A DNA stretch of 19,806 nt, from IMG/VR virus record IMGVR_UViG_2711768067_000013, positions 1 to 19,806 of that record, one strand, 5' to 3'. Positions 1,977 to 18,546 of the stretch are shown here, in pieces (position 1 is the stretch's first letter; the number at the start of each line of letters is the position of its first letter). Origin of the DNA: a virus. Its lineage: Duplodnaviria > Heunggongvirae > Uroviricota > Caudoviricetes. The position numbers were made by a program, and so were the translations under genes. Under the pieces are notes generated by a model that worked only from the letters and a program-made list of their open reading frames with translations, was not told the origin of the DNA and did no database searches.

Positions 1977-1984
1977 ATGTAATA

Positions 1985-2018: not shown

Positions 2019-2056
2019 GATTATCTCGTTACAGAGCGTTTCATAGGCGTTTAAGG

Positions 2057-2734
2057 CTATTGTTTAAATACTGGCGTTACAACGTCTTGCCCTGGGCTTT
2101 TTTGATTTTTCTGTTCTGTTGTATTTACCTGCATTTTAACCTGTCCCCCTACAGATTTATTTGGTGCTGTTTTTACCGCAATTGCGCTTGTAGTTGCTTT
2201 AGAGACAAGACGGATTTGCTCAAAATCAAGAGTAAACAATAGGCTTTCGCTTGCTTCTTCTTCATAAGACATGCCAACTAACACAACGTTGTCATAATTT
2301 TTTAACTCAGTGACAAGTAGGAAAGGTTGGCGACTGTCCATCAACTGATTTAGGTATTCAAGCATAAGCATACGTCTATTGCCGTTAATTCCCGCATTCT
2401 TAATCATATCGGGATTGAGCTTCAATACGGTTTCAGAGATACGCCCCTGTAATGTGAACTTGTTATTCCGTATTTGAACATGATCACTAACTTCTGATCC
2501 TGATTCGACAGCATAGCTTGTAACGTCTGCATTTCTGCTAATTTTCGTCGATTCCACGCTATCAAATGATAATGCCTGGTAGTCATTGTAAGCAGCATTT
2601 GCACCACTGCCGAGGTTAGAGGCAATGATCGCAAAGCCGTTACCCCCTTTAGTTGTTCTACCGTTGCTATCGTTGCTTGTGCTGTTGATTTTCGCCTCAG
2701 TCGGGCGACCAATGGTTAACGGACCCATTGCCAT
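2057..2734 (-). CDS. Hypothetical protein (225 aa), last gene of the structural-like block
   Basis: ATG at 2734 with AAGGA about 9 nt upstream; 48 bp after the stop of the 613-aa gene. No recognisable catalytic motif. Confidence refers to coding status, not function. Confidence 0.5.
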   Translation of the reverse strand: MAMGPLTIGRPTEAKINSTSNDSNGRTTKGGNGFAIIASNLGSGANAAYNDYQALSFDSVESTKISRNADVTSYAVESGSEVSDHVQIRNNKFTLQGRISETVLKLNPDMIKNAGINGNRRMLMLEYLNQLMDSRQPFLLVTELKNYDNVVLVGMSYEEEASESLLFTLDFEQIRLVSKATTSAIAVKTAPNKSVGGQVKMQVNTTEQKNQKSPGQDVVTPVFKQ

Positions 2735-2781
2735 AATTTGTAATCCTTATTTAAGGGGGCTAAACAGCCCCACAGTGATGA

Positions 2782-4623: not shown

Positions 4624-4657
4624 GTTAATTGTTTCCCTGTATTATGATTGTTGTTTG

Positions 4658-4855
4658 TTATTGTTTTTTAGAACAGTAGTATGTAATTGCTTCAAAAGTG
4701 CTGCATCCAGTCTGAAACACACGCTGCCGCACATTATTTGCATCAATTTCTAAAAGGCGGCAAAGCGCCGATGTGTTTATAACTGATTCCTCGCTAATAG
4801 CTGCCAGTTCTTTTACAGATTTAAGAATTAATGCCTGTGAATTTTCTGTATTCAT
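4658..4855 (-). CDS. Hypothetical small protein (65 aa)
   Basis: ATG at 4855 with a purine-rich stretch upstream; lies between the 343-aa and 613-aa genes on the same strand. Confidence 0.4.
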   Translation of the reverse strand: MNTENSQALILKSVKELAAISEESVINTSALCRLLEIDANNVRQRVFQTGCSTFEAITYYCSKKQ

Positions 4856-5018
4856 TGGTTTTCTCTCACATATATATTTTTATTTGGTTTTGTAGACAGT
4901 AGAAAAACAAAAAGGGCAAAGAGATTCGTTACTGTATTTGCGCCTACAGGTTAGTTAATCCCTTTACCCTTAGCCCCGATTATTTTCAGACGATGGGGAA
5001 TCGTCTATTAACGCTTTA

Positions 5019-6050
5019 TTACGCAGCAGATCCGAAGATGATAGCTTGCGGAATGTTGTTTACTGGCAGATAAGATGTCTCAGTAACCACAGATGGGAAT
5101 TGGAATTCATCCTTGATTAGATATTGGTGATGTAACACGGCATCTTGACCTAACTCAGCATGACGCACACCAACGCCGCTATGAAGCTGGTAACACTGTG
5201 CCGCTTTATCCATTACCGGAACAATTGCGAAACCGTTCTCTCCGATGTGAGCAACAATCTCAGGAAACATTGACACATCAATAGCAGTGATCCCGCCAAT
5301 CTGGAAAGAGTCATAGGCTGGGTTAGAATCAACCATACGGGTAAACAGGGCCGTAGCACTCGCATCACCTGCATATTTCACCATGTCACTGATCAGCGGG
5401 TTAGATGACAAACCATCAGCAGCAGCGCCAGCAGCAAAGATAATTACACCAGTTCGCTTTGCAGCAAGAGCAGACCCCAGCTTTTCACTCTGTAAGCGCA
5501 CCGCTTTACGAATAGCAAGGAACGGGTTAACAGTAGTCGATGCAAAGTCGATAGCGGGTACCGTGGTTTTAGCCTGACCGTCGAGGAAGTCGAGATCACC
5601 TTGTCCGGCATATTCAGATTCAACTTTCAGTCCCAGCAGCGCGGTAATCAGATCCACTTCAACACGGTTTGCGTGTGAACGGTAATGAGCCTCAGAGAAA
5701 TCATTAACCGCTACCAGCATAGCATCAGAACGGTTTGGATATTGGCGGCTGTATTGTTCCAGGTCACGAGAAGTAACAGCGTTAATACTGCCGACGTGTT
5801 TCATCTGGAAAAGTTTGTTTGACCATTCCTGACGTTTAGAGGCGTTCCAGTCGCTTTGAGCGTAAGGCGAGGTTTCCCCAGCTACCTGCACAAACTGATC
5901 AATCAGGTCGGTAAGAAGAATGCTGTTTTCTGTATGATATTGCACATCGAACAGATCGAGATTAGTAATCAGGGTATTAAGTGCATTCTCATAAGCAAAT
6001 GGAGTTACTACCGCAGTATTAACACCAAAATATGTTGATAAATCATTCAT
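5019..6050 (-). CDS. 343-aa hypothetical protein, candidate major virion structural protein (capsid- or tail-tube-like); function not established
   Basis: ATG at 6050 with AAGGAAAA 8 nt upstream, and only 14 bp after the upstream 127-aa gene. A stem-loop follows the stop (4988-5006). No enzymatic motifs; the call rests on size and gene context. Confidence 0.6.
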   Translation of the reverse strand: MNDLSTYFGVNTAVVTPFAYENALNTLITNLDLFDVQYHTENSILLTDLIDQFVQVAGETSPYAQSDWNASKRQEWSNKLFQMKHVGSINAVTSRDLEQYSRQYPNRSDAMLVAVNDFSEAHYRSHANRVEVDLITALLGLKVESEYAGQGDLDFLDGQAKTTVPAIDFASTTVNPFLAIRKAVRLQSEKLGSALAAKRTGVIIFAAGAAADGLSSNPLISDMVKYAGDASATALFTRMVDSNPAYDSFQIGGITAIDVSMFPEIVAHIGENGFAIVPVMDKAAQCYQLHSGVGVRHAELGQDAVLHHQYLIKDEFQFPSVVTETSYLPVNNIPQAIIFGSAA

Positions 6051-6064
6051 TATTATTTTCCTTG

Positions 6065-6448
6065 TTAAGTCGTAGGGATCGCAAGTTCTTCATAACCAGC
6101 AATTACAAAGCCGAGAGATTGCAGTTTTGCAATAACACTTGCCTTTTCCATGCTGTTAAATTCAATCCCATCTTCAGCCAGAATAACGAAAGTAGGATGT
6201 GCAACCACTACGCTTTCCTGTCCTTCATAAGCCGGTTCAACTACTACGTGAGCAATATCAGATGCGGTTGTTGCTTTGGTGCCATCGGCTTTCAGCAAAG
6301 CCCCGACAATAAGATCGTCAGTGAGAGGTGAAGCCAGTTTGACGAGGCGATCTTGCAGCACTGGATCAGCAGCGTAAGCTACTACCTTACAGCGTGAACG
6401 GGAGTTATCCGCATTCACTGCTTTTAATTTTCCATATGGGTTAGCCAT
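6065..6448 (-). CDS. 127-aa hypothetical protein, possibly a head-decoration or tail-terminator-like partner of the 343-aa protein
   Basis: ATG at 6448 with AAAGGAAAA upstream, an RBS context almost identical to that of the 343-aa gene; 4-bp gap from the upstream 65-aa gene. Confidence 0.55.
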   Translation of the reverse strand: MANPYGKLKAVNADNSRSRCKVVAYAADPVLQDRLVKLASPLTDDLIVGALLKADGTKATTASDIAHVVVEPAYEGQESVVVAHPTFVILAEDGIEFNSMEKASVIAKLQSLGFVIAGYEELAIPTT

Positions 6449-6452
6449 AAGA

Positions 6453-6650
6453 TTATTTTCCTTTCAGTTGTTTAATTTTAGATTTAAGGGCATCAGCAAG
6501 ACTAACCGCATCAGCCGATTTAAATAATTGAGCAGTGGTAGAACGAAGACTTTCGGGAGTAACTCCCAACAGTGCGGCAACCTTAATGAGGTTTTCATCA
6601 CTAACAATCATCGTTTCCCCGTCTTTGCTGATAATCATTTCTTGTTTCAT
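6453..6650 (-). CDS. Hypothetical small protein (65 aa from the ATG at 6650; the track ORF extends to a TTG at 6692)
   Basis: ATG at 6650-6648 with AGGAA 9 nt upstream; first gene after the terminator-like hairpin at 6682-6731. Confidence 0.45.
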   Translation of the reverse strand: MKQEMIISKDGETMIVSDENLIKVAALLGVTPESLRSTTAQLFKSADAVSLADALKSKIKQLKGK

Positions 6651-6681
6651 AAATAACGTTCCTGTTAGTGCCAGACAAATA

Positions 6682-6731
6682 AAAAGCCCCAATGCCGTAA
6701 GAGGTTAATTCTGACCAGCAAAGGGGCTTTA
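6682..6731 (-). terminator. Terminator-like hairpin immediately upstream of the structural-like block (minus-strand sense)
   Basis: AAAGCCCC and GGGGCTTT arms (6682-6690 and 6724-6731) around a ~33-nt loop, followed on the minus strand by TTTTTATTT. The large loop makes this a weak call. Confidence 0.3.
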
Positions 6732-7326
6732 ACGTGCGGGCAATTACATAATTGATAAGTTAAACTATAAGAGGATTAAACATATCAGCAAATACACTTT
6801 TTAAATATACTTGATGATATGCTTAAAGGGTGAATAGATACTCCTGAAAACATGCTCTTAGGAAAACATGCGGAATCAATCAGGAATATCTATTCGGGGC
6901 GCGGTGGCCAACCGCTATCTTTCATGGTGTGGATGCACCAGTCAGATTTTAAGGAATCACTATTCCAATCTACTCACAGATTAAATTTTTAATAATGATT
7001 AACTACACCAACAGTAATCTACCGTTTCAGAAAATCGTTTTTACAACCAAAGCTTATAGATCCGCATTCTATAAAACCCGTTTTGCTATCAATATTTCCA
7101 AAGGTTATTGCACAATTCTTAGCTAAACTCTCTACTTGCGGCTAACGCTACGCAGATGATAGTTTTTTGACAACAACTTAATAGATTATTCTGTTACTAA
7201 CTTCTGTCATTAAATAAGAGTTTAATGATGTTAGTAAATAGTTATAAAATATAACTATCAGTGTAAGGCTCTTTAATGTTTTCGGACAAAATAAGGAGCT
7301 TTAGGATAAGCATAGATGAAAATAAG

Positions 7327-7364
7327 AGCGGGAAGGGCAAGGAGATAACACCTACCCGCTTTTA
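7327..7364. terminator. Bidirectional terminator-like hairpin in the 930-bp spacer
   Basis: agcgggaagg (7327-7336) pairs with cctacccgct (7351-7360) with one mismatch; T-tracts follow on both strands (TTTTAT plus; CTTATTTTC minus). It lies ~270 bp downstream of the 102-aa gene in minus sense. Confidence 0.4.
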
Positions 7365-7633
7365 TCAAAATTAAGCACAATGCCTAACAACATTCATCAA
7401 CACAACGTAGAAACAATCAACAATCAAAGAGGGAGTTATGATTATTCTAAAACTTCTTGAGGGGATGGAAGGTAATATTTGTTAGAGGTTAATGCCACTC
7501 AACCCTTGAGGCTATCACCTTCCATATGCAGGGATTTATGACAGTAGAAGGATTAACACCAGTCAAAACCTTTTTATCTACCCCTAATATCATTATATAA
7601 TGAAATTGTTATAAATGCAAATGATTTTCATTA

Positions 7634-7942
7634 TCACTTAGAAGAAATAGCACTTTTTGCTAAATCATCTACTAATTGCTGAATCTCTTCACTTGCAGCC
7701 TTTAACGTGCTGGCGCTGCTGCTGATGGTTTGAGTGCACAGCCTGGCATCGTCCTCTGATAGCTCTAAATCGCTCACCAGAGAGATAAAATCGTCAAGGC
7801 TTACATTCACCTTCATTAAGCTAATAACGCATTGAGAGAGCGTGTAATCGCATAAATCTGAATAGGCTTGATTTATTCTTGTTTGTAGTGAGATAGTCAG
7901 ATCTAAAAGTTGTTCCATTGCATTGCTAATATCTTCTTCCAT
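7634..7942 (-). CDS. Hypothetical acidic protein (102 aa)
   Basis: ATG at 7942 overlaps the stop of the upstream 67-aa gene (TAATG), suggesting translational coupling. Confidence 0.5.
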   Translation of the reverse strand: MEEDISNAMEQLLDLTISLQTRINQAYSDLCDYTLSQCVISLMKVNVSLDDFISLVSDLELSEDDARLCTQTISSSASTLKAASEEIQQLVDDLAKSAISSK

Positions 7943-8145
7943 TATGCGGCTTCTCCTTGTAATGCATCATTAATCATATTCAATACGATGTTAAAAGGTG
8001 TCTTGAGCGTCAGCACTTCATCACGATAACGCTCTAATGCTTCGTAGTCTTCTGTTTCTTTTGCCAGTCGGATTAACTCAGCATAGTTTTTTGCATCAGA
8101 CAGGATCATCTGAAATAATTGTGTTTCCTGTATATGGTCGATCAT
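7942..8145 (-). CDS. Hypothetical protein (67 aa)
   Basis: ATG at 8145 with AAGGAA 6 nt upstream. Confidence 0.5.
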   Translation of the reverse strand: MIDHIQETQLFQMILSDAKNYAELIRLAKETEDYEALERYRDEVLTLKTPFNIVLNMINDALQGEAA

Positions 8146-8162
8146 TGTTGTTCCTTTTATTT

Positions 8163-8549
8163 TTAGTTTGAACGTTTGTTAGATGCGAGAGTGTCGATCA
8201 GGTGCTGCATCAGATCTGTTTCTGTAACGCCGCCTACCTGATTGTTGAAACTATTAAAACCGATATAGTGCCTGTAGCTGGTAAAATTTAACAGCTGCCA
8301 TTTCTTTAATGTGCCAGGTTCTATAATCGTTGTCTTTCTTGTTCTGGGTTTGAAATACACACCATCACCCATTGATTGAATAATTTCTAATTCTTCGTTT
8401 GTAAGTGGTGGGCTGTTAGATTCTAAAATGAAGATTATCTCTTCCCCTGGAATTTCGTTATTGGTGTGTGTCGGTGGACGTTGTCTTGTTGAATTGAAGT
8501 TACTGTTTTTTTCAATACGTTTTAAGTTGTTCTTTTTCTTTCTTCCCAT
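8163..8549 (-). CDS. Hypothetical protein (128 aa), basic N-terminus
   Basis: ATG at 8549 with AGAGGGA upstream. Confidence 0.5.
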   Translation of the reverse strand: MGRKKKNNLKRIEKNSNFNSTRQRPPTHTNNEIPGEEIIFILESNSPPLTNEELEIIQSMGDGVYFKPRTRKTTIIEPGTLKKWQLLNFTSYRHYIGFNSFNNQVGGVTETDLMQHLIDTLASNKRSN

Positions 8550-8645
8550 TTTCCCTCTTTTTATGTGGATTATAAAAACTGAATGCCATAGTTACGATGA
8601 ATATCGCCATAAATGCATTTGCCATATGTATTGCCCGATCTGTTG

Positions 8646-8903
8646 TTATTGATTGTTTGTGATAAACAATTCAAAATCTTTGTTTAATTTCAAAAGACGA
8701 AATGTAGTGTGGTTAATCCCTTCATAATCCAGCACACCGAACGATGTAAAATGATTTACGTGTTGTGCGCTGTAGCCGCCTAAACTACAAAAGCTAACCA
8801 CTGTCGGTGGTGAAAACTCTATTTCCAAAATAGCTTTTAAAATGTTGTATCCGCTTTCAGTTATTTCAATAGTTTTGTTTCCTATAGTGATGTTATAAGT
8901 CAT
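8646..8903 (-). CDS. Hypothetical protein (85 aa)
   Basis: ATG at 8903 with AAGGAG 6 nt upstream. Confidence 0.5.
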   Translation of the reverse strand: MTYNITIGNKTIEITESGYNILKAILEIEFSPPTVVSFCSLGGYSAQHVNHFTSFGVLDYEGINHTTFRLLKLNKDFELFITNNQ

Positions 8904-8912
8904 TTATTCTCC

Positions 8913-9587
8913 TTAGAATGGTATTGAATCGTATATTTCACTTTTTTCTCTTAGAGATATTATCAGATCGTGAAAAGCCTGTTTCTCAAGATAGATATTC
9001 TTTGAATCTAATGCTCGTTTTACAAAATCTTCTGTTTCTTCGTGCGGTGGCTTCTTGTTATCAAGGGAAAGAAGCCAGTTAAAAATCTTTTCCGGGAACT
9101 CTGATTCCTGTATTTCTTCTTCAACGATGATTTCTGAAACATTCAATATTTCATTAGATTCGTTTTCTTTCTCAGAAGGATCAGGTAGTGATGACTCTCT
9201 AGGGGGAGTAATATGTGCATCTGTGAGAGGTAGCGCACGTAATTTTAATGGACGTTTTGGGATTCGTTCTCCGACCTCTTCTAAAAGACCGATTTTAATC
9301 ATAAGACCAATCAATTCATTAACTGTCTTACGGCTACAGCCACAAACTTTACTTAACTTCGTTTGTGTTTCAAAACATATCCCCCCTGATTTCTCCCAAT
9401 CTGAAACATAGCAATATAATTTTTGCATTTCTGCACTAAACTTCGCTTTTCCATCCTCAATATTTGAGGAGTAGATGAATTCAATCTCACAAAAGTAGTG
9501 TGGTATATTCAAAGTTCGGTCTTTAATTTCTCCTGTTTGTTGATCAACATACTGGTATTTTTCACGAATCAATTTAATTTTAGACAT
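8913..9587 (-). CDS. 224-aa putative DNA-binding protein (winged-helix-like segment SRKTVNELIGLMIKIGLLEE); candidate regulator or replication-initiator-like protein
   Basis: Track ORF 8913-9644 starts at GTG; the ATG at 9587 has a strong AAGGAG 8 nt upstream. The C-terminal half is acidic. Function is inferred from the motif only. Confidence 0.5.
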   Translation of the reverse strand: MSKIKLIREKYQYVDQQTGEIKDRTLNIPHYFCEIEFIYSSNIEDGKAKFSAEMQKLYCYVSDWEKSGGICFETQTKLSKVCGCSRKTVNELIGLMIKIGLLEEVGERIPKRPLKLRALPLTDAHITPPRESSLPDPSEKENESNEILNVSEIIVEEEIQESEFPEKIFNWLLSLDNKKPPHEETEDFVKRALDSKNIYLEKQAFHDLIISLREKSEIYDSIPF

Positions 9588-9640
9588 TAGAATTATCTCC
9601 TTATAAATCACGCTTAATGCGCTACTAAAGTGAATGAGGA

Positions 9641-9808
9641 TCACTTACCCTTTTTTTGTTTGATGTTCTCTGCTGCTTCAGTAATGATTTCTAACATCAA
9701 ATCACTGACCATAATTTGCCTTTTCTTGGCTTCAGCAAATAAAATCTTGAAAATTTCAGGGTCAACGTGTAGGTAAGTGCGTGGAATTGGTTTCTTGGTT
9801 TCGCTCAT
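9641..9808 (-). CDS. 55-aa ribbon-helix-helix-like small protein (MSETKKPIPRTYLHVDPEIFKILFAEAKKRQIMVSDLMLEIITEAAENIKQKKGK); absent from the ORF track because it is under 60 aa
   Basis: Hand-translated: ATG at 9808-9806 with AGGAGAAGGAG upstream, TGA at 9643-9641. A predicted strand followed by two helices fits Arc/CopG-type repressors. Confidence 0.45.
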   Translation of the reverse strand: MSETKKPIPRTYLHVDPEIFKILFAEAKKRQIMVSDLMLEIITEAAENIKQKKGK

Positions 9809-9829
9809 AGTTTTCTCCTTCTCCTGTTA

Positions 9830-10012
9830 TTATTCTTTCTCTGCTCCTGCCTTACGCAGTTCATCAATAATTTTTAGTGCATCGTCAAAACATTTTTCAC
9901 GCTCTGGATAACCACAGCGTCGCGCTGTGTTCCTGTTCATCCTTACTTTAAAACGATTGATCTCACCACGTTTCCAGGCTTCAACTACATCCTGGGGAGT
10001 GAAATACTTCAT
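9830..10012 (-). CDS. Hypothetical protein (60 aa), first gene of the minus-strand array
   Basis: ATG at 10012 with AGGAGG 7 nt upstream; 21 bp before the RHH-like ORF. Confidence 0.5.
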   Translation of the reverse strand: MKYFTPQDVVEAWKRGEINRFKVRMNRNTARRCGYPEREKCFDDALKIIDELRKAGAEKE

Positions 10013-10134
10013 TAATTAACCTCCTATTCTATTTGGTTAAAAGAAAAAACACCTTGCAAGCCTTGTTGGGCTTCAAAGTGCGGTGCATTGGTTTAATTAC
10101 TTAGAGGATAAGAATGTTTTCTGTCCCTAATATT

Positions 10135-10163
10135 ACTTTACCACGACTAAAAGCTTTTGTCAA
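10135..10163 (-). promoter_or_regulatory. Candidate sigma70 promoter for the minus-strand array (TTGACA, 17-bp spacer, TAAAGT)
   Basis: Minus-strand TTGACA is the reverse complement of 10158-10163; TAAAGT is the reverse complement of 10135-10140. Motif match only. Confidence 0.3.
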
Positions 10164-10324
10164 CCCCTATCCATAAAAATATTGATCATTTTCAGTGTGT
10201 TATAATTTTTCTTAGCAATTCGTGCTCTTACGGGTGCTCCTATTCTTCCTTATTCTCTAAAACGCTCTAAAACGCCCTCTGACGAGGTTTTGATAAATAC
10301 AATACATTCACTTATGTAGAGGCT

Positions 10325-10780
10325 GTTTAGCTCGCCAGAGGCTTATTTAAGGGGCTTATTTTGTATTTGTTAGGTATATGGGAAGATGATGATAGATAAA
10401 ATCTAATTTCAGACATCTTATAAAATACCTGTAAAGCTCCTCAGAAGCTCTATAACGAGCTAATCTATTACCGCTAAGTGTTTCCCTGCCTTATATACGT
10501 TTAGCTCGCCTACGGCTTGATTTAAGCGGTAGAATCTTATTTAACCTTCAACTACTAAAACCATTCTTTCTTTTTTGTTTGTTGTTGGTTGTTGTCTGTG
10601 TCTATGTGCTAACATCGCTAACGCGTAGCACACAAGGTTATTGCACTCGTCAGAGTATTGCACAATAGATTTTCTCTTAAATAGATTGATGATCGTTAGA
10701 TTGGCGTAAGCCTCATCAATGGAACTATTGAAGCGCACAGCGCAAGACTATTTAGCCTTACGCAAGCCGTAGGCTATTTG
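10325..10780. repeat. Repeat family in the noncoding region: two direct ~28-31-bp copies (10325-10352, 10499-10529) and one inverted, itself palindromic copy (10749-10780)
   Basis: Copy 1 gtttagctcgccagaggcttatttaagg; copy 2 gtttagctcgcctacggcttgatttaagcgg; copy 3 reverse complement contains GCCTACGGCTTG. A TTG/TGT-rich tract (about 10565-10610) and several CTAAC pentamers lie between copies 2 and 3. Confidence 0.5.
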
Positions 10781-10961
10781 CACATAGTAGATTACATATT
10801 CGTTGTGAGCGGCATTAGCGAACATATATCTACTAACTAACATCAACAAACAAAAACTATGTGTTATGACAAGCAGTCTAACGACTAACACTCTAACTTG
10901 TGCAAGGTTCTGGCGAATGCCAATAGATTAAGGGATAGTCAAAGACTCCCTAACGGGTATA

Positions 10962-11045
10962 CCTATAATTATTCTTATAAAGATAAAAAAGAATTATATT
11001 ATATAGTTTAATAGTTAGTTTTATTATTAGTATTATAGATGTTAG
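10962..11045. other. Very AT-rich tract next to the iteron-like array; candidate DNA-unwinding element
   Basis: About 85 bp of almost pure A/T directly upstream of the palindrome array. Confidence 0.35.
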
Positions 11046-11053
11046 TCTTATTG

Positions 11054-11224
11054 TGTAACCTTTCGTTACAACCAATCATCTGCCGATGTAACGTATCGTT
11101 ACTACCGATGTGTAATATCGTTACATTCAATAATTAGTCTATGTAACGAATCGTTACTACAAAATTTCTTACAGAGAGTATTTCAGATAGCTGAATGTAA
11201 CCCATCGTTACATCCATCGTTACA
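11054..11224. repeat. Iteron-like array: five palindromes with a TGTAAC / GTTACA core (11054-11070, 11087-11103, 11111-11125, 11142-11158, 11196-11212) plus an extra half-site (11216-11224); two units form a tandem 22-bp repeat (11083-11126)
   Basis: Read directly, for example TGTAACctttcGTTACA, GTAACGtatCGTTAC, GTAACGaatCGTTAC and TGTAACccatcGTTACA. Could be a replication origin, a recombinase res-like site or a repressor operator. Confidence 0.6.
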
Positions 11225-11661
11225 TCCATTTATCACATAACATCTGTGCAATGATCTTCTAAAAGTGTTTCTTACTATCAAAAATTAAACATCTAAAACA
11301 GGCTTAAATTCAATGTAATTGATGATTAATCCCTGTGTAATTCCTACGTAAAAATTCAATGAAAAGTAGCTTAAAAGTGCAATTCTTACTTTCTTCACTT
11401 TTACATCACTTTCGCAAAGCCTTGTGTAATGCGGCATATAGCGCATCACTGCAAAATTGTTGCTCAATAAACGTTCTATCATTTGTCGAACAAGTTTTCT
11501 TTAATGCAACAAAAAATTATTTTTTCAAAATAAACACACCATTTAATAGCTTGCTAATTTTACCAAAACGTAACTACATGCTTCTCATGCAAGACGTGTA
11601 GTGATAAAGCAGGCTAAATCACCACACTAAAAACCTTCGAATTTCGTAGTGAAAAAAGTCC

Positions 11662-11691
11662 TTTACACACCTAATCAACACGATCAATAAT
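11662..11691 (+). promoter_or_regulatory. Candidate promoter for the serine recombinase (TTTACA, 18-bp spacer, AATAAT)
   Basis: Motif match ~35 bp upstream of the ATG at 11727. Confidence 0.3.
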
Positions 11692-11726
11692 CACTACACA
11701 CAAATCAACACAGAAGGAAAATGAAA

Positions 11727-12278
11727 ATGGCTAATATTGGATACATTAGGGTATCGACTGTGCAACAAAACACAGACCGTCAATTAGCTGGAGTAACTCT
11801 TGATAAAGTCTTTGAAGATAAAGCGTCAGGCAAGAACACTCAGCGCCCACAGTTTGAGGCAATGATGAACTATGTGCGGGAGGGTGACGTGTTACACGTC
11901 CATAGTATTGATCGCCTTTGTCGTAATACAGCCGACCTTCTGGCAACGGTTGAGCAATTAACAGAGCGCGGCGTGTCTGTGCATTTCCATAAAGAAGACT
12001 TTAAGACAGGGAAGAACTCTCCCGCAGGGAATATGATGCTCACAGTGCTTGCAGCAGTGGCACAAATGGAACGTGAAATGATGCTTGAGCGGCAACGTGA
12101 AGGGATCGCCGCAGCTAAGGCCGCTGGGCGTATAGCAAAACGTGGTAATGGAAAAGCAATTGATCGAGCAGGAATTGCTGCCGCTCTCGCGAATGGTGGA
12201 TCAATTCGGAGCGTAGCAAAAGATTTCAGTGTCAGCACACAGACGGTGCAACGTATCAAGAAAGAGCAGGAAGCGTAA
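11727..12278 (+). CDS. Small serine recombinase (resolvase/invertase family, ~183 aa)
   Basis: N-terminus MANIGYIRVSTVQQNTDRQ carries the resolvase catalytic-Ser motif; a C-terminal helix-turn-helix-like region (SIRSVAKDFSVSTQTVQRIKK) follows. The ATG at 11727 is better spaced from the AAGGA than the ATG at 11721. Confidence 0.85.
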   Translation: MANIGYIRVSTVQQNTDRQLAGVTLDKVFEDKASGKNTQRPQFEAMMNYVREGDVLHVHSIDRLCRNTADLLATVEQLTERGVSVHFHKEDFKTGKNSPAGNMMLTVLAAVAQMEREMMLERQREGIAAAKAAGRIAKRGNGKAIDRAGIAAALANGGSIRSVAKDFSVSTQTVQRIKKEQEA

Positions 12279-12618
12279 TGCCTCCTGATATTTGAGAATT
12301 GTCGCTGCGTGGACCTGACGCCGCTGATCTTCTCGTTAAGCGATGATCACGTATGCGCCGATTTCAGAGAAAAAGACAGTAACTGAACTCACTATGAAGG
12401 CTAAACGCATCTTTACACTTGATGAAAACGTTCAAAAAACAACCTAACCCCAAAATTCAACAAATTGCAACACATTGTTTTTAAAAGAAAATTAAATCTA
12501 CATCAAATATTGGTTGACGTAGATTGAGGTGAATAGTAGACTATTAGGGTAAATTACCACCCTTGCAACATCATTTAATGCATGTTCTAATCTTCCTATC
12601 GTAAAACCGGAGGAAGTT

Positions 12619-12777
12619 ATGCATTTACTTTCAAAACATCTTCACACTATTCACTTTCTCGTTATTGATGTATTCGTTGTGGCTATTAGTTACCGCATTT
12701 GCATCGCTTCCAGTGAAGAGATGGACGCTGTTGCAATTATTGCTCAAGCAATGGCGATGTTAACTAAACGACTTTAA
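12619..12777 (+). CDS. 52-aa small hydrophobic protein (MHLLSKHLHTIHFLVIDVFVVAISYRICIASSEEMDAVAIIAQAMAMLTKRL); not in the ORF track
   Basis: ATG at 12619 with GGAGGA 5 nt upstream; contains a predicted membrane-like helix. Confidence 0.4.
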   Translation: MHLLSKHLHTIHFLVIDVFVVAISYRICIASSEEMDAVAIIAQAMAMLTKRL

Positions 12778-12843
12778 TAATTTCACTATCAGGTGCATAA
12801 ACACATCTTTGATCGCTGGATGTGTTATGCGCCTACTGGTGGT

Positions 12844-12996
12844 TCAATCCTTAAGCCATTTCAACTCACTAAGGAGTTTTCTTTCTTCGTTCTCTCGCTG
12901 TTTACGCTCTAGCCAGGCTTTTCCCTCTGGCGTAGACAGGAACTTACGAGCGTGAATCTTGCGGTTATTACGTTTTATAGCTGCAATGTTTTTCAT
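12844..12996 (-). CDS. 50-aa highly basic small protein (MKNIAAIKRNNRKIHARKFLSTPEGKAWLERKQRENEERKLLSELKWLKD); not in the ORF track
   Basis: Hand-translated: ATG at 12996-12994 with GAGG upstream, TGA at 12846-12844. Convergent with the 52-aa ORF. Confidence 0.4.
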   Translation of the reverse strand: MKNIAAIKRNNRKIHARKFLSTPEGKAWLERKQRENEERKLLSELKWLKD

Positions 12997-13600
12997 CGTG
13001 TGCCTCTGTATTCATATGAAAATTAACAAGTTACATACTACACAGGGAGACTACGCATAAAACACAATACAAGTAAAGATACATTTTCAAGACAATAGGA
13101 GCCATAAAGCGCCTTTGATGGTTATACCAAAAAATAAGCGCCGTAGGCGTATCCACTAAAAGGGCTTTTTCACAAAAGCTATGAAGTCTTAGCAGTTCTT
13201 CTCTTATCAGGCACCCGTTGTACTCCGGTGGACGAAACCGTGCTAGAGCTTGATTCTTTCCCGATCAAGTTAGGTTTTGAAGAGGTGGGCTTTGATCCAC
13301 TATTGCACTTAAAACTCTTCCCATCATTTAGCCTGTTTATCCTCTGCAACGTCTCACGACGTGTAGCATCATTGGACACCGCGCCAGGTGTGGAACATCT
13401 TGCTAAGAGTTTTGGTAGAAGGTTTAGAGACGGTGGCACGTCTTCCAGCTTCAAAGGAACTTGTTACGAGGTTGAGCCTGGGAACTACTCGCCCATACGT
13501 GTTACACTACCAAAGCCCATAACAACGTATAGGCGTTTGTAAGTGATAACAGAAGATACAATTTCTTAGAGAAGTTAAGCTAAGTTATTGATTTTCTTAA

Positions 13601-13646
13601 TGGTGCCGATAATAGGAGTCGAACCTACGACCTTCGCATTACGAAT
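13601..13646 (-). tRNA. Truncated tRNA-Thr (CGU anticodon) 3' fragment, 46 nt (anticodon loop through T-arm, acceptor 3' strand and CCA); att-site remnant, not a functional gene
   Basis: Reverse complement reads ATTCGTAATGCGAAGGTCGTAGGTTCGACTCCTATTATCGGCACCA, with the GGTTCGA T-loop and CCA end; sequence diverges from tRNA after 13646. As I recall it, this matches the 3' part of E. coli thrW. Confidence 0.7.
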
Positions 13647-13951
13647 TATAAGAATCCGCTTCTAATTCAAAGCATTACCCCATCAACACTGCGCTCACAC
13701 GTCCCACCACATCAAAACATGTAAAGCCTTGCAAGCCATTGCGAGGCCTTATGTGTCTCAGTTTTGTCCCACCTTGTATTACGACTTACATAGCCAATGA
13801 AGATAAACGTGACGACAAACGGCGCAGCAGTCTTCTTTTCCTTCATACTTTCCCCACCCAGCATGCATACCTTTATGCCATAACTGAAGTTTATGTCTGT
13901 TATGAGCGAAAAGCAGACATTACACTAAATTATTTAGGTTTACTTTTATCA

Positions 13952-14824
13952 TTACATTTCTAATGCTTTTTCTCTGCTAATTGATCCTTCACCATTGCAG
14001 GTTCTGCAATCTAATTTTATATTCCTGCAGTCAGGACAAGTAAATTTTTCATAATTAGAAAGATTCACCTTTGCAGCAATATATCTTTTTACGGATCCCA
14101 TTCCATTACAGATCGGACAATCTTCTCCCGCTAAACTGCCTTTTCCATTACATAAAGGGCAAGTTACAGTGGATATCACTTCATTTTCATTTTCATAAAT
14201 AAAATTGTTGAAATTTTGGGCGTTTATTGTGCTTAGTTGAACTTTTTCAATTTTTTTTATGTGATGTTCAAAATACTTTTTAATTGCCTTCTTAAGATCC
14301 TCTTTAGACGATTTCCATTGTTCTGGTGAGATCCTAATCGATTGAAATCCTTCGTTACTAGTTATTACTGCATCACGCTTGTAAGTAGACTTAATTTTAC
14401 TTTCCACATAATGAGCTATGTGGCCATCATACTCGATGCCAATAGCAGCAATCTCAACCAAATCTTGACCAATCCATCTATTTAGTCTAAGGACAAGGTC
14501 TATTGCCCAAGGCTGGGCTTTTGGGTTTATATTGCCAACCTTATACTGAGGCTCGATATAAACAATATGTCCGTTTGGGAATTGACCTTTCAGAGTTATT
14601 CGTCGTGGTGAATTTTGAAAACTATCGATTTCCAATGGACTAAACTGAGATATGAGGCCGGCAATTACCTCTATCTCAGCCTGAGATGTTTTTTCCACTC
14701 CTTGTAAACTAATAAGACCGATAGCTACTTGACGGTTAGTGGCTGGCTCAATCCTTTTAAATAGTTTCTTCTGATTATTACTAAAATTATTTTTGATAAC
14801 TTCAAGTGTTTCATCTAGTTCCAT
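13952..14824 (-). CDS. PD-(D/E)xK-type nuclease-like domain fused to a C-terminal DnaJ-type zinc finger (four CxxCxGxG-like repeats)
   Basis: Track ORF starts at GTG 14833; an ATG lies at 14824. Candidate nuclease motif D...IGIEYDGHIAHY (DUF559/Vsr-like). C-terminus has CPLCNGKGS, CPICNGMGS, CPDCRN and CRTCNGEGS. AT-rich gene. Confidence 0.65.
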   Translation of the reverse strand: MELDETLEVIKNNFSNNQKKLFKRIEPATNRQVAIGLISLQGVEKTSQAEIEVIAGLISQFSPLEIDSFQNSPRRITLKGQFPNGHIVYIEPQYKVGNINPKAQPWAIDLVLRLNRWIGQDLVEIAAIGIEYDGHIAHYVESKIKSTYKRDAVITSNEGFQSIRISPEQWKSSKEDLKKAIKKYFEHHIKKIEKVQLSTINAQNFNNFIYENENEVISTVTCPLCNGKGSLAGEDCPICNGMGSVKRYIAAKVNLSNYEKFTCPDCRNIKLDCRTCNGEGSISREKALEM

Positions 14825-14928
14825 CTCACCCACTCTATAAACTGATTATCCATATAAACTACATTATCATTTTTAACTGCTCAACATAGATTAACATAGC
14901 GCGATGCTAACAGTGTCAACTCCTGGCA

Positions 14929-14956: not shown

Positions 14957-15559
14957 TTAGACTTCAATCGATTCAGAGATCTCTAACACATCATCTACTT
15001 CAATACCCAGATAACGGACTGTGCTTTCCAGTTTCTTATGGCCCAACAGAAGTTGGATCACCCGAAGATTCTTGGTTTTCTTGTAGATCAGGTAAGGTTT
15101 TGTTCTTCTCATGGAATGAGTGCTGTAAAGCGAATCTTCGAGACCAAGCTTTTCTACCCACCCATGAAAAATTCGGTTGTATTGCCGGGTAGATATGAGC
15201 TGATTAGTTCCGACCAGAAACCGAAACAAGAAGTCTTTACTATGCAAATTGCCAAGCATTATCAATGCAGCAACAGCTTCTCTTGTCCCTTTGGTTATCT
15301 CAAACTGCACAGGGCTACCGGTTTTCTGTTGCAGCACCGTAGCTCTGCTTGAAGCAGAGCTACCATATGCAACATCAGATACTTTGAGTTTGACCAGATC
15401 ACAGCCTCGTAGCTTACTGTCCAGGGCCATATCGAACTGAGCTAAATCGCGCGTTTTATCTTCCAGTTCAAGCCGGATTCGGATCCCCCAGATATGAGAT
15501 ATCTGAAGTGGTCTTTTTTGGCCGATGATACGGTCTTTGTTCCACGGTGACGTGTTCAT
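14957..15559 (-). CDS. Short tyrosine recombinase (~200 aa, catalytic domain only, FimB/FimE-like size)
   Basis: Track ORF starts at TTG 15613; the ATG at 15559 has AGGAGA upstream. Catalytic signatures: LRGCDL (Arg), HSMRRT (His-x-x-Arg), LLGH, and TVRYL (Tyr). No N-terminal arm-binding domain. Confidence 0.8.
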   Translation of the reverse strand: MNTSPWNKDRIIGQKRPLQISHIWGIRIRLELEDKTRDLAQFDMALDSKLRGCDLVKLKVSDVAYGSSASSRATVLQQKTGSPVQFEITKGTREAVAALIMLGNLHSKDFLFRFLVGTNQLISTRQYNRIFHGWVEKLGLEDSLYSTHSMRRTKPYLIYKKTKNLRVIQLLLGHKKLESTVRYLGIEVDDVLEISESIEV

Positions 15560-15595
15560 ACTCAAATCTCCTGCAATGTGGGAGATTTGAGTATG
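15557..15595. promoter_or_regulatory. Perfect 15-bp inverted repeat with 9-bp spacer (CATACTCAAATCTCC tgcaatgtg GGAGATTTGAGTATG) covering the recombinase Shine-Dalgarno and start codon
   Basis: Arms 15557-15571 and 15581-15595 are exact reverse complements. In the minus-strand mRNA the hairpin would sequester GGAG and AUG. Confidence 0.5.
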
Positions 15596-15765
15596 GTTGT
15601 CCCTTATGAGCAAATCGCAGACGTAACATCAAGTTCATAGCTACCCTGGAGCACCTTATTATCCTGTATAACGATAAGTTGGGAAGCCAGTGGCCTCACA
15701 GTGTCCCCAAGATGGTGGTGTCTCTGCACCAAAGATGCGCTAGTTCAAATGTTAGTAAATATAAT

Positions 15766-16677
15766 TTATATGTAATCAGGTAGTGAATTCAAAGCCATCA
15801 CTCTTTCTCTTTCTTTTTCTGTCATTTCTCTCATAACAATTTGAGATAGCGCTAATGTTATCTCCTTTGTTTTATTGAAGGCTTCTTTGGTATATGTTTT
15901 CCTTCCATACTCAAGTTCATTAAATGTCCCCATAATCCATTTGAGATAGAATAATGGGATGGCTAGATCACTTATATCCTGCCATCTCGTAATCGCTTTA
16001 TATTCATTCCAAAAATAATCCTCAAAATGCTTATCACAATCACCTTTACACGCATAATAAACCGCTATCACCTCATTTGGTTTGTCATCGTGTATGATCT
16101 CTGCATTGCACACAATGCCATCATAATTTTCTTCATGATGGTTTTCTATTAAGTCCTTTCCACAACGATCACATTTTATAGGTAAGTACTTATCAAAAAT
16201 CAAATGCTTGGGTTTTATTTTTTTATAGCTCTCAGGAAAGTATCTAAGGAGTAGTTTTGAGTAACCAATTCTGACTAAGTGATTTTCAATTAATTTACCA
16301 TCAAAGAATCGAAAGTCCTTTATTTTTCCATTCTCTTTTAATTGCGTCATTCTTGAATTTAAACCACTACTTGGCAGTGTTGAGTAAAATCCAATAAATC
16401 CGTCGGCATTGAATCCATCAATACGTTCTTGTATATTAATCTCATCCTTTTCTGAAACTGATTTTTTACTTGTTGCATAATGTTTACAGCTAACAAGCCA
16501 ACGAAATTTATATTTATTTAACTGACCTTGCAATTGCTCTGTGATTAAAAGATCTTTACCTCCATCTGCACCTCTATCTGGCGCGGATTCAATATAAAAG
16601 CCAAGTTCTTCAAGAAAATCACGGGCAAATGACTCCCAGGCTTCACCGTCACTATCAATTTCAGTAAAGTTAATCAT
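15766..16677 (-). CDS. Mrr-like (type IV restriction endonuclease catalytic fold) N-terminal domain fused to a Cys/His-rich C-terminal domain (303 aa)
   Basis: ATG at 16677 with GGGAG 9 nt upstream. N-terminal motifs RGADGGKDLLI and WLVSCKHY fit the Mrr_cat pattern. The C-terminus has CDRCGKD, CNAEI and CKGDCDKH. AT-rich gene. Confidence 0.65.
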   Translation of the reverse strand: MINFTEIDSDGEAWESFARDFLEELGFYIESAPDRGADGGKDLLITEQLQGQLNKYKFRWLVSCKHYATSKKSVSEKDEINIQERIDGFNADGFIGFYSTLPSSGLNSRMTQLKENGKIKDFRFFDGKLIENHLVRIGYSKLLLRYFPESYKKIKPKHLIFDKYLPIKCDRCGKDLIENHHEENYDGIVCNAEIIHDDKPNEVIAVYYACKGDCDKHFEDYFWNEYKAITRWQDISDLAIPLFYLKWIMGTFNELEYGRKTYTKEAFNKTKEITLALSQIVMREMTEKERERVMALNSLPDYI

Positions 16678-16925
16678 TTGTTAACTCCCAAGCGTTGAGA
16701 TATTTTTATATCTGTATTGTGGGCTTATTATAAGCGAGTGTAATTATAATATCATACTAACAGACACAACTTCCGCTTCTGGTACATAGCAGACCAGAGA
16801 CACTGGCGTAAAGCCATGGAGGATCGGTGGGAGGAGGTAAAAATCCTCTCATGCAAAAAATACGCAAAATCGATAACAGTTGGAAATCATTCAATACTCG
16901 CACTATCGGAAGTTCACCAGCCAGT

Positions 16926-16958
16926 CGTAGCACGTTCTTGCATACGACGTGGCTACGG
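16926..16958. repeat. Degenerate second copy of the pin terminator hairpin (direct repeat of 17947-17982), flanking the GIY-YIG gene on the left
   Basis: cgtagcacgttcttgcatacgacgtggctacgg aligns with ccgcagcacgatcttcttgcatacgacgtgctacgg, with small indels. Confidence 0.5.
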
Positions 16959-17054: not shown

Positions 17055-17924
<870 letters not shown>

Positions 17925-17984: not shown

Positions 17985-18546
17985 TCATTTATCTCCGACC
18001 GGAAACTTCTTATACAGTGTCGATATACCAACATCATAGATGATCGCCACCTTCTGGCGAGGAACGCCTGATGCAATTAATCGTCCGGCCTGCTCCCATT
18101 GTTCTGGTGTAAGTTTGGGACGACGTCCACCAATTCGTCCCTGTGCGCGAGCAGCTTCCAGTCCAGCTTTTGTTCGTTCAACAATCAGTTCACGCTCCAT
18201 TTCAGCCAGGGCACCCATCACATGAAAGAAAAAGCGCCCCATTGGGGTACTGGTATCAATTGAATCCGTCAGACTACGAAAGTTGATGCCTCGTTCGCGC
18301 AACTCCTCCACCAGCACGACAAGATGCCGCATACTGCGCCCCCAGTCTGTCCAGCTTCCAGACAACCAGCGTGTCTCCTGCCGATAGTGTCCTGAGCAGC
18401 TTTTTCAGCCCCGGTCTGTCGGACTTGGTGCCACTGATTTTATCCTCAAAAATCCGCTCACATCCCGCACAGTTCAGTGCATTGCGTTGCAAATCGGTGT
18501 TCTGGTCATTTGTTGACACGCGTACATAGCCAATAAGCATGATCAT
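17985..18546 (-). pseudogene. pin: Pin/Gin/Hin-family serine DNA invertase, disrupted by a +1 frameshift in a C5 run (18339-18343, plus strand)
   Basis: N-terminal ORF (18274-18546) reads MLIGYVRVSTNDQNTDLQ…WKLDRLG, then goes out of frame. C-terminal ORF (17985-18365) reads …GRSMRHLVVLVEELRERGINFRSLTDSIDTSTPMGRFFFHVMGALAEMERE…. Removing one G from the GGGGG run restores WKLDRLGRSMRHL. May be a sequencing error. Confidence 0.7.

What the first reader, a model, noticed from the sequence alone, without database searches (positions are those of the whole stretch)
15766..16677. Mrr-like restriction-fold domain fused to a Cys/His-rich C-terminal domain
The N-terminal ~110 aa fit the Mrr catalytic-domain pattern (GADGGKD…VSCKHY), but the usual N-terminal winged-helix is missing and a 190-aa domain with a CxxC…C…CxxxCxxH cluster follows instead. 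This could be a modification-dependent or structure-sensing nuclease with a novel recognition domain.
Basis: partly seen in the sequence, partly recalled or inferred. Interest (0 to 1): 0.55.

Follow-up and report, generated by a model that had tools for sequence, protein, structure and literature searches.

The report
Prophage Mrr-type nuclease with novel zinc domain
This is a real, intact, widely spread but untested single gene carried by prophages. It joins an Mrr-type DNA-cutting domain to a four-cysteine zinc domain that resembles no solved structure, and it is most likely an anti-phage nuclease rather than a classical restriction enzyme.

Summary
Window 15766-16677 (minus strand) is an intact 303-aa gene with its own promoter-like site and ribosome-binding site.

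- **N-terminal domain (residues 1-~150):** a complete Mrr-type PD-(D/E)xK nuclease domain. It passes the Pfam Mrr_cat threshold, and the structure model best matches the MspJI and AspBHI catalytic domains. It has no winged helix. The canonical Q/E of the Mrr 'QxK' motif is an invariant Ser (D42...S63-C-K65).
- **C-terminal domain (residues ~155-303):** a separate domain with four invariant cysteines (CxxC-x33-45-CxxxC) followed by helices. The pattern suggests a treble-clef zinc site, but I did not inspect coordinates. Nothing in PDB, BFVD, Pfam or PHROGs matches it significantly.
- **Family:** at least 1358 homologues of about 300 aa, found in 254 species representatives across many bacterial phyla and some archaea. 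There is no conserved partner gene. Neighbours are often defence genes.
- **Location in E. coli:** a 91%-identical allele fills the Z/fun phage-exclusion slot of P2-like prophages. Here the gene sits at a prophage end beside a PD-T4-3 homologue.
- **Selection:** dN/dS is 0.2, so both domains are under purifying selection.

Best reading: a stand-alone, methyltransferase-independent defence nuclease whose zinc domain sets target choice or activation. Function is inferred, not shown. It is a new variant of a known kind and moderately interesting.

The parts
15766..16677 (-). Complete gene, 303 codons plus stop: Mrr-type nuclease domain fused to a Cys4 zinc/helical domain
   Evidence: ORF list. 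Annotated 'restriction endonuclease' WP_000606914.1 in an identical E. coli chromosome segment. 1358 homologues.
16216..16677 (-). N-terminal nuclease domain, residues 1-154 (alpha-beta core; strands at 28-31, 43-50, 55-65, 93-98, 121-125)
   Evidence: Pfam Mrr_cat 24.9 bits, above GA 21. AlphaFold model pLDDT 84.9. Foldseek hits MspJI, AspBHI, EcoT38I, the Avs4 nuclease and RPB5. Colinear with the EcoKMrr catalytic domain by eye.
16483..16566 (-). Active-site stretch: D38-G-G-K-D42 ... E47 ... S63-C64-K65 (a D...SxK variant of the Mrr D...QxK motif)
   Evidence: D38, D42, E47, S63, C64 and K65 are invariant in 61 sequences. EcoKMrr has GDGGIDG ... VQAKRW at the matching places. PD-QxK is stated for EcoKMrr and MspJI in PMC12707154.
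15769..16215 (-). C-terminal domain, residues 155-303: zinc knuckle, long beta-hairpin, helix, then a helical bundle
   Evidence: Domain-only AlphaFold model pLDDT 87.2, pTM 0.78. No significant structural or sequence relative. 314 cluster representatives carry it.
16036..16173 (-). Predicted Cys4 metal site: C169-x2-C172 ... C210-x3-C214
   Evidence: All four Cys are invariant. The spacer is 33-45 residues across the family. 12 of 36 family members give weak, sub-threshold Arc_trans_TRASH matches on the CxxC knuckle.
16727..16755 (-). Promoter-like site (ATGATA-17-TATAAT), about 50 nt upstream of the ATG
   Evidence: Best consensus match in the region, 10 of 12. Its -10 hexamer lies the same distance from the ATG (51-56 nt) as the -10 annotated in the P2-EC67 record. 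Consensus only, not shown to function.
16685..16689 (-). Ribosome-binding site GGGAG, 7 nt before the ATG
   Evidence: Sequence read directly. An RBS is annotated at the same place in AJ512685.
15618..16794 (-). Mobile cassette: the gene with about 115 bp upstream and about 150 bp downstream, shared at 91% identity with the Z-region of P2-like prophages
   Evidence: Megablast hits H9-H13 cover query 19-1195 of window 15600-16900. Alignment to AJ512685. Position between gpG and gpFI in strain S51.

Best explanation
This is a self-contained, prophage-borne phage-exclusion nuclease made of one polypeptide with no partner gene.

- The N-terminal Mrr-type PD-(D/E)xK domain is the DNA-cleaving module. 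Its motif is D42...S63-x-K65. The acidic residue missing from the 'QxK' position is probably supplied by invariant E47, E79 or E84.
- The C-terminal Cys4 zinc/helical domain decides which nucleic acid is cut, or when.
- There is no cognate methyltransferase. I therefore think it most likely works like a Type IV restriction enzyme: it recognises a chemical or structural feature of invading DNA, not an unmethylated sequence, and cuts it directly.

Shown: the gene is intact; the fold assignment holds; the motifs are conserved; both domains are under purifying selection; there is no conserved partner; the gene is carried on prophages, plasmids and defence islands.

Inferred: catalytic activity, zinc binding, the defence role, and the type of ligand.
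For: - **Fold:** Mrr_cat above the Pfam threshold. The structural neighbours are the catalytic domains of the modification-dependent enzymes MspJI and AspBHI.
- **Active site:** E15 is conserved in 60 of 61 homologues, and D38, D42, E47 and K65 are invariant in all 61.
- **Selection:** dN/dS is 0.15 for the N domain and 0.23 for the C domain.
- **Solitary gene:** in 130 nearest-neighbour ORFs from 67 species, no Pfam family occurs more than 4 times. The same holds in six metagenomic and genomic contexts.
- **Defence neighbourhood:** neighbours include KwaB, DRT reverse transcriptases, Type IV and Type I/IIG enzymes, PbeA, LmuA, AbiU, PD-Lambda-1, HEPN and HigB, and HsdR and GmrSD_N+HEPN.
- **Local context:** the next gene in the window is a PD-T4-3 homologue (E 2.7e-140).
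- **P2 slot:** the 91% allele sits exactly between gpG and gpFI of a P2-like prophage. That is the slot of the P2 phage-exclusion gene Z/fun, a known site of horizontally acquired genes (PMC3091744). The P2-EC67 record calls it a putative lysogenic conversion protein.
- **Mobility:** it is on 11 IMG/VR viral contigs and on plasmids. Its distribution is patchy: 254 of 185,579 species representatives, across many phyla.
- **Ligand type:** the C domain keeps about 41% identity across phyla. That suits a universal ligand such as a DNA feature better than a fast-evolving phage protein.
Against: - There is no experiment on this family in anything I could search.
- The Q/E of the Mrr (Q/E)xK motif is an invariant Ser, so catalysis is not guaranteed.
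- Both domains are mildly acidic. The median net charge of the C domain is -3 and its pI is 5.7, which is not what a typical DNA-binding module looks like.
- The C domain resembles no known reader of modified bases.
- PADLOC 2023 has no model that matches the protein.
Confidence: 0.45

Rival explanations
1. Same nuclease effector, but working as a triggered (abortive-infection type) switch. The C-terminal zinc domain holds the nuclease inactive until it binds a phage protein or another infection signal. The enzyme then degrades DNA without discrimination. This is how Avs proteins use N-terminal Mrr-like nuclease effectors, and PD-Lambda-1 has a comparable layout.
For: - The two modules are shuffled like effector and sensor modules. 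The C domain is also fused to a different nuclease, MTES_1575/DUF559 (P0204).
- The 'DGGxD...VSCKH' nuclease occurs with unrelated C-termini on Rhizobium, Clostridium and Photobacterium plasmids.
- The Avs4 nuclease is among the Foldseek hits.
- The acidic, non-DNA-like C domain fits protein binding or auto-inhibition.
- A PD-Lambda-1 homologue and toxin-antitoxin pairs are among the neighbours.
Against: - The C domain is strongly conserved from E. coli to Bacteroidota, Acidobacteriota and archaea, with dN/dS 0.23. That is unusual for a sensor of a variable phage protein.
- There is no NTPase or oligomerisation module like those of Avs.
- Domain shuffling is equally typical of Type IV enzymes.
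Confidence: 0.25
2. The nuclease fold is catalytically dead or repurposed because of the Ser at the Q/E position. The protein then acts by binding, for example as a DNA- or protein-binding exclusion factor or a regulator, not by cutting.
For: S63 replaces the canonical Q/E in every family member. There is no biochemical evidence of activity.
Against: - The other catalytic positions are fully conserved. Three further acidic residues (E47, E79, E84) are invariant near the motif.
- From my own knowledge, not tested here: active PD-(D/E)xK enzymes with an SxK motif and a relocated Glu exist (the Cfr10I/NgoMIV group).
- Purifying selection is strongest on the N domain, with dN/dS 0.15.
Confidence: 0.12
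3. A selfish free-standing homing-type endonuclease cassette that inserts between conserved phage genes and spreads by cutting cassette-free alleles. Any defence effect would be incidental.
For: The gene travels as a compact cassette with its own promoter and flanking repeats, between the P2 gpG/gpFI junction and an unrelated prophage end.
Against: - Most homologues lie in chromosomal defence islands or next to toxin-antitoxin pairs, not between phage structural genes.
- No conserved flanking target gene was seen.
- The P2 Z-region is a general cargo slot that holds unrelated genes in different phages (PMC3091744).
Confidence: 0.06

Closest known systems
EcoKMrr (Type IV methyl-directed restriction enzyme, Pfam Mrr_cat)
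   Same: Same catalytic-domain family. The proteins are colinear from the helix with the conserved Glu, through G-x-D-G-G-x-D and the x-K strand, to the 'TT/ST' strand and the 'DG..L' helix. Both are solitary genes without a methyltransferase.
   Different: The domain order is reversed. There is no N-terminal winged helix. The Q of QxK is an invariant Ser. The partner domain is a Cys4 zinc/helical domain unrelated to Mrr's. hhalign against the single Mrr sequence found no significant alignment.
MspJI / AspBHI family (modification-dependent, SRA-like domain plus Mrr-like catalytic domain)
   Same: These are the best structural matches to the nuclease domain (4f0p, 4oc8; E 5e-5 to 9e-5). Both have a two-domain layout of one recognition module plus one Mrr-like cutter.
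   Different: There is no SRA-like domain. The catalytic domain is N-terminal here. The motif is SxK, not QxK (PMC12707154). Only about 13-16% identity over the aligned part.
Defence proteins with an N-terminal Mrr-like nuclease effector: Avs (e.g. Avs4) and PD-Lambda-1 (Mrr-family nuclease plus beta-propeller)
   Same: An N-terminal Mrr-type effector is followed by a non-catalytic C-terminal module. The Avs4 nuclease is among the Foldseek hits. PD-Lambda-1 is described as an N-terminal Mrr-family nuclease with a 7-bladed propeller (PMC9519451).
   Different: There is no STAND NTPase, no propeller and no PADLOC match. The C-terminal module here is only about 150 aa and binds metal through four Cys.
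P2 Z/fun phage-exclusion gene and other cargo of the P2 Z-region
   Same: Same genomic slot, between tail-fibre assembly gene G and sheath gene FI, in strain S51 and in the P2-EC67 Z-region record (PMC3091744). Like other Z-region cargo it is a single gene with its own promoter.
   Different: I did not compare it with the Z/fun protein sequence. The link is positional only.
TRASH / zf-FCS type zinc modules (CxxC-x19-22-CxxxC)
   Different: All matches fall below the Pfam threshold of 27 bits. The spacer is 33-45 residues, not 19-22. The finger is fused to a conserved helical bundle (W232, D234, D237, P241, Q279, R283, E284) that TRASH domains lack.

Membership tests
Mrr_cat (PF04471) nuclease superfamily | Sequence match to the family profile above the curated threshold | tested here: met
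   24.9 bits against a gathering score of 21, E 2.3e-5, residues 10-77. A distant family member, P0147, also matches.
Mrr_cat (PF04471) nuclease superfamily | PD-(D/E)xK alpha-beta core fold | tested here: met
   AlphaFold model pLDDT 84.9. Foldseek probability 1.00 to the MspJI and AspBHI catalytic domains, plus EcoT38I and Avs4.
Mrr_cat (PF04471) nuclease superfamily | Catalytic D ... (Q/E)-x-K motif | tested here: not met
   D42 and K65 are present and invariant, but the Q/E position is an invariant Ser (S63). Whether E47, E79 or E84 compensates is not testable here.
EcoKMrr-type Type IV restriction enzymes | N-terminal winged-helix DNA-binding domain | tested here: not met
   The nuclease domain starts at about residue 10. 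No winged helix appears in Pfam or in the model.
EcoKMrr-type Type IV restriction enzymes | Cleavage that depends on modified DNA | not testable with these tools
   Needs in vivo restriction or in vitro cleavage assays.
Type IV / solitary restriction enzymes in general | No cognate methyltransferase encoded with the nuclease | tested here: met
   N6_Mtase occurs in only 2 of 130 nearest neighbours and C5 DNA_methylase in 1. There is none in the window or in the P2 slot.
MspJI family | SRA-like 5mC/5hmC-flipping domain | tested here: not met
Avs / PD-Lambda-1 type sensors with an Mrr effector | STAND NTPase or beta-propeller sensor after the nuclease | tested here: not met
   There is no such domain, and the protein has no PADLOC hit.
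TRASH domain (Arc_trans_TRASH, PF08394) | Profile match above threshold, with CxxC-x19-22-CxxxC spacing | tested here: not met
   The best E among 36 members is 6.4e-4, below the threshold of 27 bits, and covers only the first ~13 profile positions. The spacer is 33-45 residues.
Known anti-phage defence systems (PADLOC-DB 2.0.0) | Match to any defence-protein model | tested here: not met
   0 families at E<=1. Systems described after 2023, such as DS-1 to DS-45 of the DefensePredictor preprint, could not be checked.
Anti-phage defence genes in general | Located in defence islands or prophage cargo slots, with patchy distribution | tested here: met
   PD-T4-3 neighbour. P2 Z/fun slot. Defence-rich neighbours in other phyla. 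Found in 254 of 185,579 species representatives.
Anti-phage defence genes in general | Protection against phage when expressed | not testable with these tools
   Needs plaque assays.

The most novel reading that the evidence does not exclude
The roughly 150-aa Cys4 zinc/helical domain is a previously undescribed sensing or recognition module. It is coupled to an SxK variant of the Mrr nuclease, and occasionally to a DUF559/MTES_1575 nuclease. Together they would define a new, broadly distributed single-protein anti-phage system whose ligand is not one of the known modified-base readers.
Probability: 0.3. Interest if true: 0.6.

Novelty: new variant of a known kind. Interest (0 to 1): 0.45.

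Why it matters
If it protects against phage, this would be a compact 303-aa, one-gene defence module. It occurs in at least 254 species across many bacterial phyla and in some archaea, and it is carried by P2-like and other prophages of Enterobacteriaceae. No defence database I could query lists it.

Its C-terminal zinc domain has no structural relative. It therefore offers a new way of recognising foreign nucleic acid or infection, and possibly a new specificity useful as a reagent, as MspJI-type enzymes became for mapping modified bases. It would also give one more Z-region cargo gene of P2-like phages a function.

If it turns out to be one of the PD-(D/E)xK systems already validated in recent E. 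coli screens, the finding is simply a correct annotation.

Tried and rejected
- **PDB sequence searches.** The whole protein, the family profile and the C-domain profile gave only chance-level hits: glucosamine-6-P deaminase, chorismate mutase, Naa30 and Grainyhead, all with E >= 0.08. The same deaminase appears as a weak NCBIfam hit. I rejected these as chance.
- **hhalign against EcoKMrr.** The family alignment against the single EcoKMrr sequence gave no alignment of the catalytic domains. I relied on Pfam, Foldseek and a by-eye colinearity instead.
- **PHROGs.** The only hit was a weak one (E 1.4e-3) on the nuclease core to a family labelled 'RusA-like resolvase'. I treated it as a labelling accident, not as evidence.
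- **NCBIfam ECs_2282_CxxC** (E 0.025) covers only the CxxC knuckle and is not significant.
- **Literature.** There were no papers for 'P2-EC67' or for WP_000606914. The Rousset 2022 text does not mention Mrr or this slot; it covers the old/tin hotspot. Vassallo 2022 mentions only an Mrr plus propeller protein. The J Virol 2023 survey of nuclease-containing systems is not held. The DefensePredictor supplements are not held.
- **Inverted repeats.** I looked for the flanking inverted repeats annotated in AJ512685. A 27-nt, 78% pair exists there, but it is not recovered in the window, so I did not build on it.
- **Model coordinates.** They are not exposed to the scripting tool. I could not measure active-site geometry, zinc-site distances or inter-domain contacts.

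Full report

Yes. The ORF list gives one 303-aa ORF at 15766..16677 on the minus strand. GGGAG lies 7 nt before the ATG. The best promoter-like site of the region (ATGATA-17-TATAAT, 16755-16727) is about 50 nt upstream. Its -10 hexamer lies the same distance from the ATG as the -10 element annotated in GenBank AJ512685.

The cysteines C169-x2-C172, C190, C210-x3-C214 and H217 are also present. An identical segment in E. coli 30EVA1 is annotated 'restriction endonuclease', WP_000606914.1.

The gene is not a chance ORF:
- 1358 proteins match at E<=1e-3, nearly all about 300 aa and full length.
- The exact protein is on 335 contigs.
- Against the 90%-identical P2-EC67 allele, dN/dS is 0.20 overall, 0.15 for the N half and 0.23 for the C half.

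**2. The N-terminal domain**

Pfam Mrr_cat matches residues 10-77 above its curated threshold. Laid against EcoKMrr, the protein is colinear over the whole catalytic domain:

| Element | This protein | EcoKMrr |
|---|---|---|
| Helix with conserved Glu | WE | FE |
| Aspartate loop | GADGGKD | GDGGIDG |
| Lysine strand | WLVSCKHY | VYVQAKRW |
| Next strand | GFIGFYST | GVFITTSG |
| Following helix | FFDGKLIENHL | LVDGERLVHLM |

The domain therefore runs to about residue 150, not 110. The AlphaFold model built on 61 homologues has pLDDT 84.9. Its best matches among solved structures are the catalytic domains of MspJI and AspBHI (E 5e-5 to 9e-5, probability 1.00). These are followed by EcoT38I, the Avs4 nuclease and RPB5. 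There is no winged helix.

The Mrr signature is D...QxK (PMC12707154), but this family has D42...S63-C64-K65, and the Ser is invariant in all 61 sequences. It is also Ser in the more distant members I inspected. E15 is conserved in 60 of 61 sequences. D20, D38, D42, E47, K65, E79, E84 and R85 are invariant.

From my own knowledge, not tested here, active PD-(D/E)xK enzymes with SxK and a relocated Glu exist (the Cfr10I group). Catalysis is therefore plausible, but it is an inference.

**3. The C-terminal domain**

Modelled alone, it has pLDDT 87 and pTM 0.78. Its elements in order are:
- a CxxC knuckle
- a long beta-hairpin (residues 187-194 and 201-210 of the full protein)
- a helix that begins at C214
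- a short strand
- a bundle of three to four helices

C169, C172, C210 and C214 are invariant. C190 is Ala in half of the family, and H217 is variable. The site is therefore Cys4, with a spacer of 33-45 residues. Two ligands from a knuckle and two at the end of a strand and the start of a helix is the treble-clef arrangement. This is my reading of the secondary structure; I could not inspect coordinates.

Nothing known matches the domain convincingly:
- BFVD gave nothing.
- PDB profile searches gave nothing.
- PHROGs gave nothing.
- In Pfam, the only recurrent hit is a sub-threshold match of the knuckle to Arc_trans_TRASH, in 12 of 36 members.

Further invariant or near-invariant residues are Y207, K211, G212, D215, W232, D234, D237, P241, N253, Q279, R283, E284, E289 and R292. 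They mark a conserved surface of unknown role. The domain is mildly acidic, with a median net charge of -3.

**4. Modularity**

A search of 1.84 billion cluster representatives with the C domain alone found 314 proteins. Almost all have the same architecture or are N-terminally truncated fragments of it. One, P0204 (460 aa), instead joins the domain to an MTES_1575/DUF559 nuclease.

Conversely, the 'DGGxD...VSCKH...GFxxFYS' nuclease occurs with unrelated C-termini on plasmids of Rhizobium, Clostridium botulinum and Photobacterium. The two halves are therefore independent modules of the effector-plus-specificity kind.

**5. Context**

*In the window.* The gene lies at the end of a prophage, in a run of cargo genes:
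- a 293-aa MTES_1575-like nuclease with a DnaJ-type zinc finger (13952-14833)
- a truncated tyrosine recombinase (14957-15613)
- this gene
- a 187-bp fragment that resembles the lambda b region
- a PD-T4-3 homologue (17100-17924, PADLOC E 2.7e-140)
- a split Pin-type invertase and tail-fibre genes

An IMG/VR viral contig has the same arrangement.

*In P2-like prophages.* The gene with about 115 bp upstream and about 150 bp downstream is shared at 91% identity with P2-like prophages. In strain S51 it sits exactly between tail-fibre assembly gene G and sheath gene FI. That is the Z-region, which holds the phage-exclusion gene Z/fun in P2 and horizontally acquired genes in relatives (PMC3091744). 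The P2-EC67 record labels it a putative lysogenic conversion protein.

*Beyond E. coli.* 254 of 185,579 species-representative genomes encode a relative. These span Pseudomonadota, Desulfobacterota, Acidobacteriota, Chloroflexota, Planctomycetota, Bacteroidota, Verrucomicrobiota, Bacillota, Fusobacteriota, Campylobacterota, CPR lineages and a Heimdallarchaeon.

*Neighbour census.* I took the nearest ORF on each side in 67 of these loci, 130 ORFs in all:
- No Pfam family occurs more than four times, so there is no conserved partner and no cognate methyltransferase.
- The neighbours include many defence proteins: KwaB, DRT reverse transcriptases, Type IV, Type I and Type IIG enzymes, PbeA, LmuA, MADS components, AbiU, PD-Lambda-1, HEPN and HigB.
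- Six further contexts show HsdR, GmrSD_N plus HEPN, HicAB, BrnT/CopG, and a relaxase/T4SS region.
- I could not count exactly how many of the 130 have a defence hit. From the table it is roughly 15-22.

**6. What it most likely is**

The gene is a solitary nuclease with its own promoter. It rides on prophages and plasmids and sits in defence islands. Its distribution is patchy and it is under purifying selection. This is the profile of a single-gene anti-phage system.

I commit to a defence nuclease in which the Mrr-type domain cuts DNA and the zinc domain supplies specificity or gating. Within that, I prefer a Type IV-like mode, meaning direct recognition of a feature of foreign DNA (confidence 0.45), for three reasons:
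- The structural neighbours are modification-dependent enzymes.
- There is no methyltransferase.
- The C domain is conserved across phyla (median 41% identity), more than I would expect for a sensor of a variable phage protein.

The main rival (0.25) is a triggered, abortive-infection type switch, as in Avs and PD-Lambda-1. The modular shuffling and the acidic, non-DNA-like C domain support it. Lesser rivals are a catalytically dead fold (0.12) and a selfish homing-type cassette (0.06).

**7. Comparison with what is known, and novelty**

By profile and fold, the protein belongs to the Mrr_cat superfamily. It fails the canonical (Q/E)xK feature, and it lacks the winged helix of EcoKMrr, the SRA domain of MspJI, and the NTPase or propeller of Avs and PD-Lambda-1. 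It has no PADLOC model.

RefSeq already names it 'restriction endonuclease', so the nuclease assignment is not new. What is new is the C-terminal domain and the SxK variant. I rate it a new variant of a known kind.

One caveat: the DefensePredictor preprint validated 14 PD-(D/E)xK proteins from ECOR strains, and its accession tables are not available to me. This family could be among them. That is the first thing to check.

**8. Verdict**

Interest is 0.45.

Noticed in passing
window 17100-17924 (+): The next gene is a near-full-length homologue of the validated defence protein PD-T4-3, a LEM-3-like GIY-YIG nuclease (PADLOC E 2.7e-140; Pfam PF22945; phrog_5356). RefSeq starts it later, at 257 aa.
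   Followed up: partly
window 13952-14833 (-): A 293-aa protein combines an MTES_1575-like (Vsr/DUF559-type) nuclease region with a DnaJ-type CXXCXGXG zinc finger. Its C-terminus matches the PADLOC candidate PDC-M01B (E 6e-15). It is a second nuclease-plus-zinc-finger gene in the same cargo region. The same nuclease family is fused to the finding's C domain in P0204.
   Followed up: partly
window 14957-15613 (-) and 15557-15595: A truncated tyrosine recombinase (catalytic domain only) lies just downstream of the finding. A perfect 15-bp hairpin with a 9-nt loop (CATACTCAAATCTCC...GGAGATTTGAGTATG) covers the GGAG and the ATG that RefSeq uses as its start. The hairpin sits just downstream of the cassette boundary shared with P2-like prophages at 15618.
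   Followed up: no
window 17985-18546 (-): The Pin/Cin-type serine invertase next to the tail-fibre genes is split into two overlapping ORFs (126 aa and 90 aa, both Resolvase hits). It is apparently frameshifted here, whereas strain 30EVA1 has an intact pinE of 184 aa.
   Followed up: no
window 16772-16958: A 187-bp stretch between the finding and PD-T4-3 is 85% identical to the lambda b region (J02459 24162-24348). It is present in about 190 lambdoid and Stx phage records. RefSeq annotates part of it as a 'capsid protein' pseudogene fragment. It looks like a recombination joint.
   Followed up: no
window 612-13900: An island of about 13 kb lies between the LysR-gene fragment and the prophage end, and is absent from strain 30EVA1. 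It carries a 454-aa tyrosine integrase with DUF6538, a Dit-like tail protein, 613-aa and 343-aa ORFs without Pfam hits, an HTH_36 protein and a serine resolvase. None of its ten larger ORFs hits PADLOC. Other strains carry different cargo (a TrlF-like ATPase, DUF4365) within their matches to the window.
   Followed up: partly
L002 (AJ512685) 83-109 and 1261-1287; window 15618-16794: In the P2-EC67 Z-region, an imperfect inverted repeat (27 nt, 78%) brackets the gene, lying inside the longer repeats annotated by the depositors. In the window, homology to that record runs out in the region of the two repeats, but the repeat pair itself is not recovered.
   Followed up: partly
P0147, P0201, P0168, P0226 (family members): A sub-clade of the family ends in a conserved 'IP..(M/L)GG(M/L/W)G' tail. 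Its helix motif also differs ('LFPxVxRE' instead of 'LSQKVxRE'). P0147 carries about 90 extra N-terminal residues.
   Followed up: no
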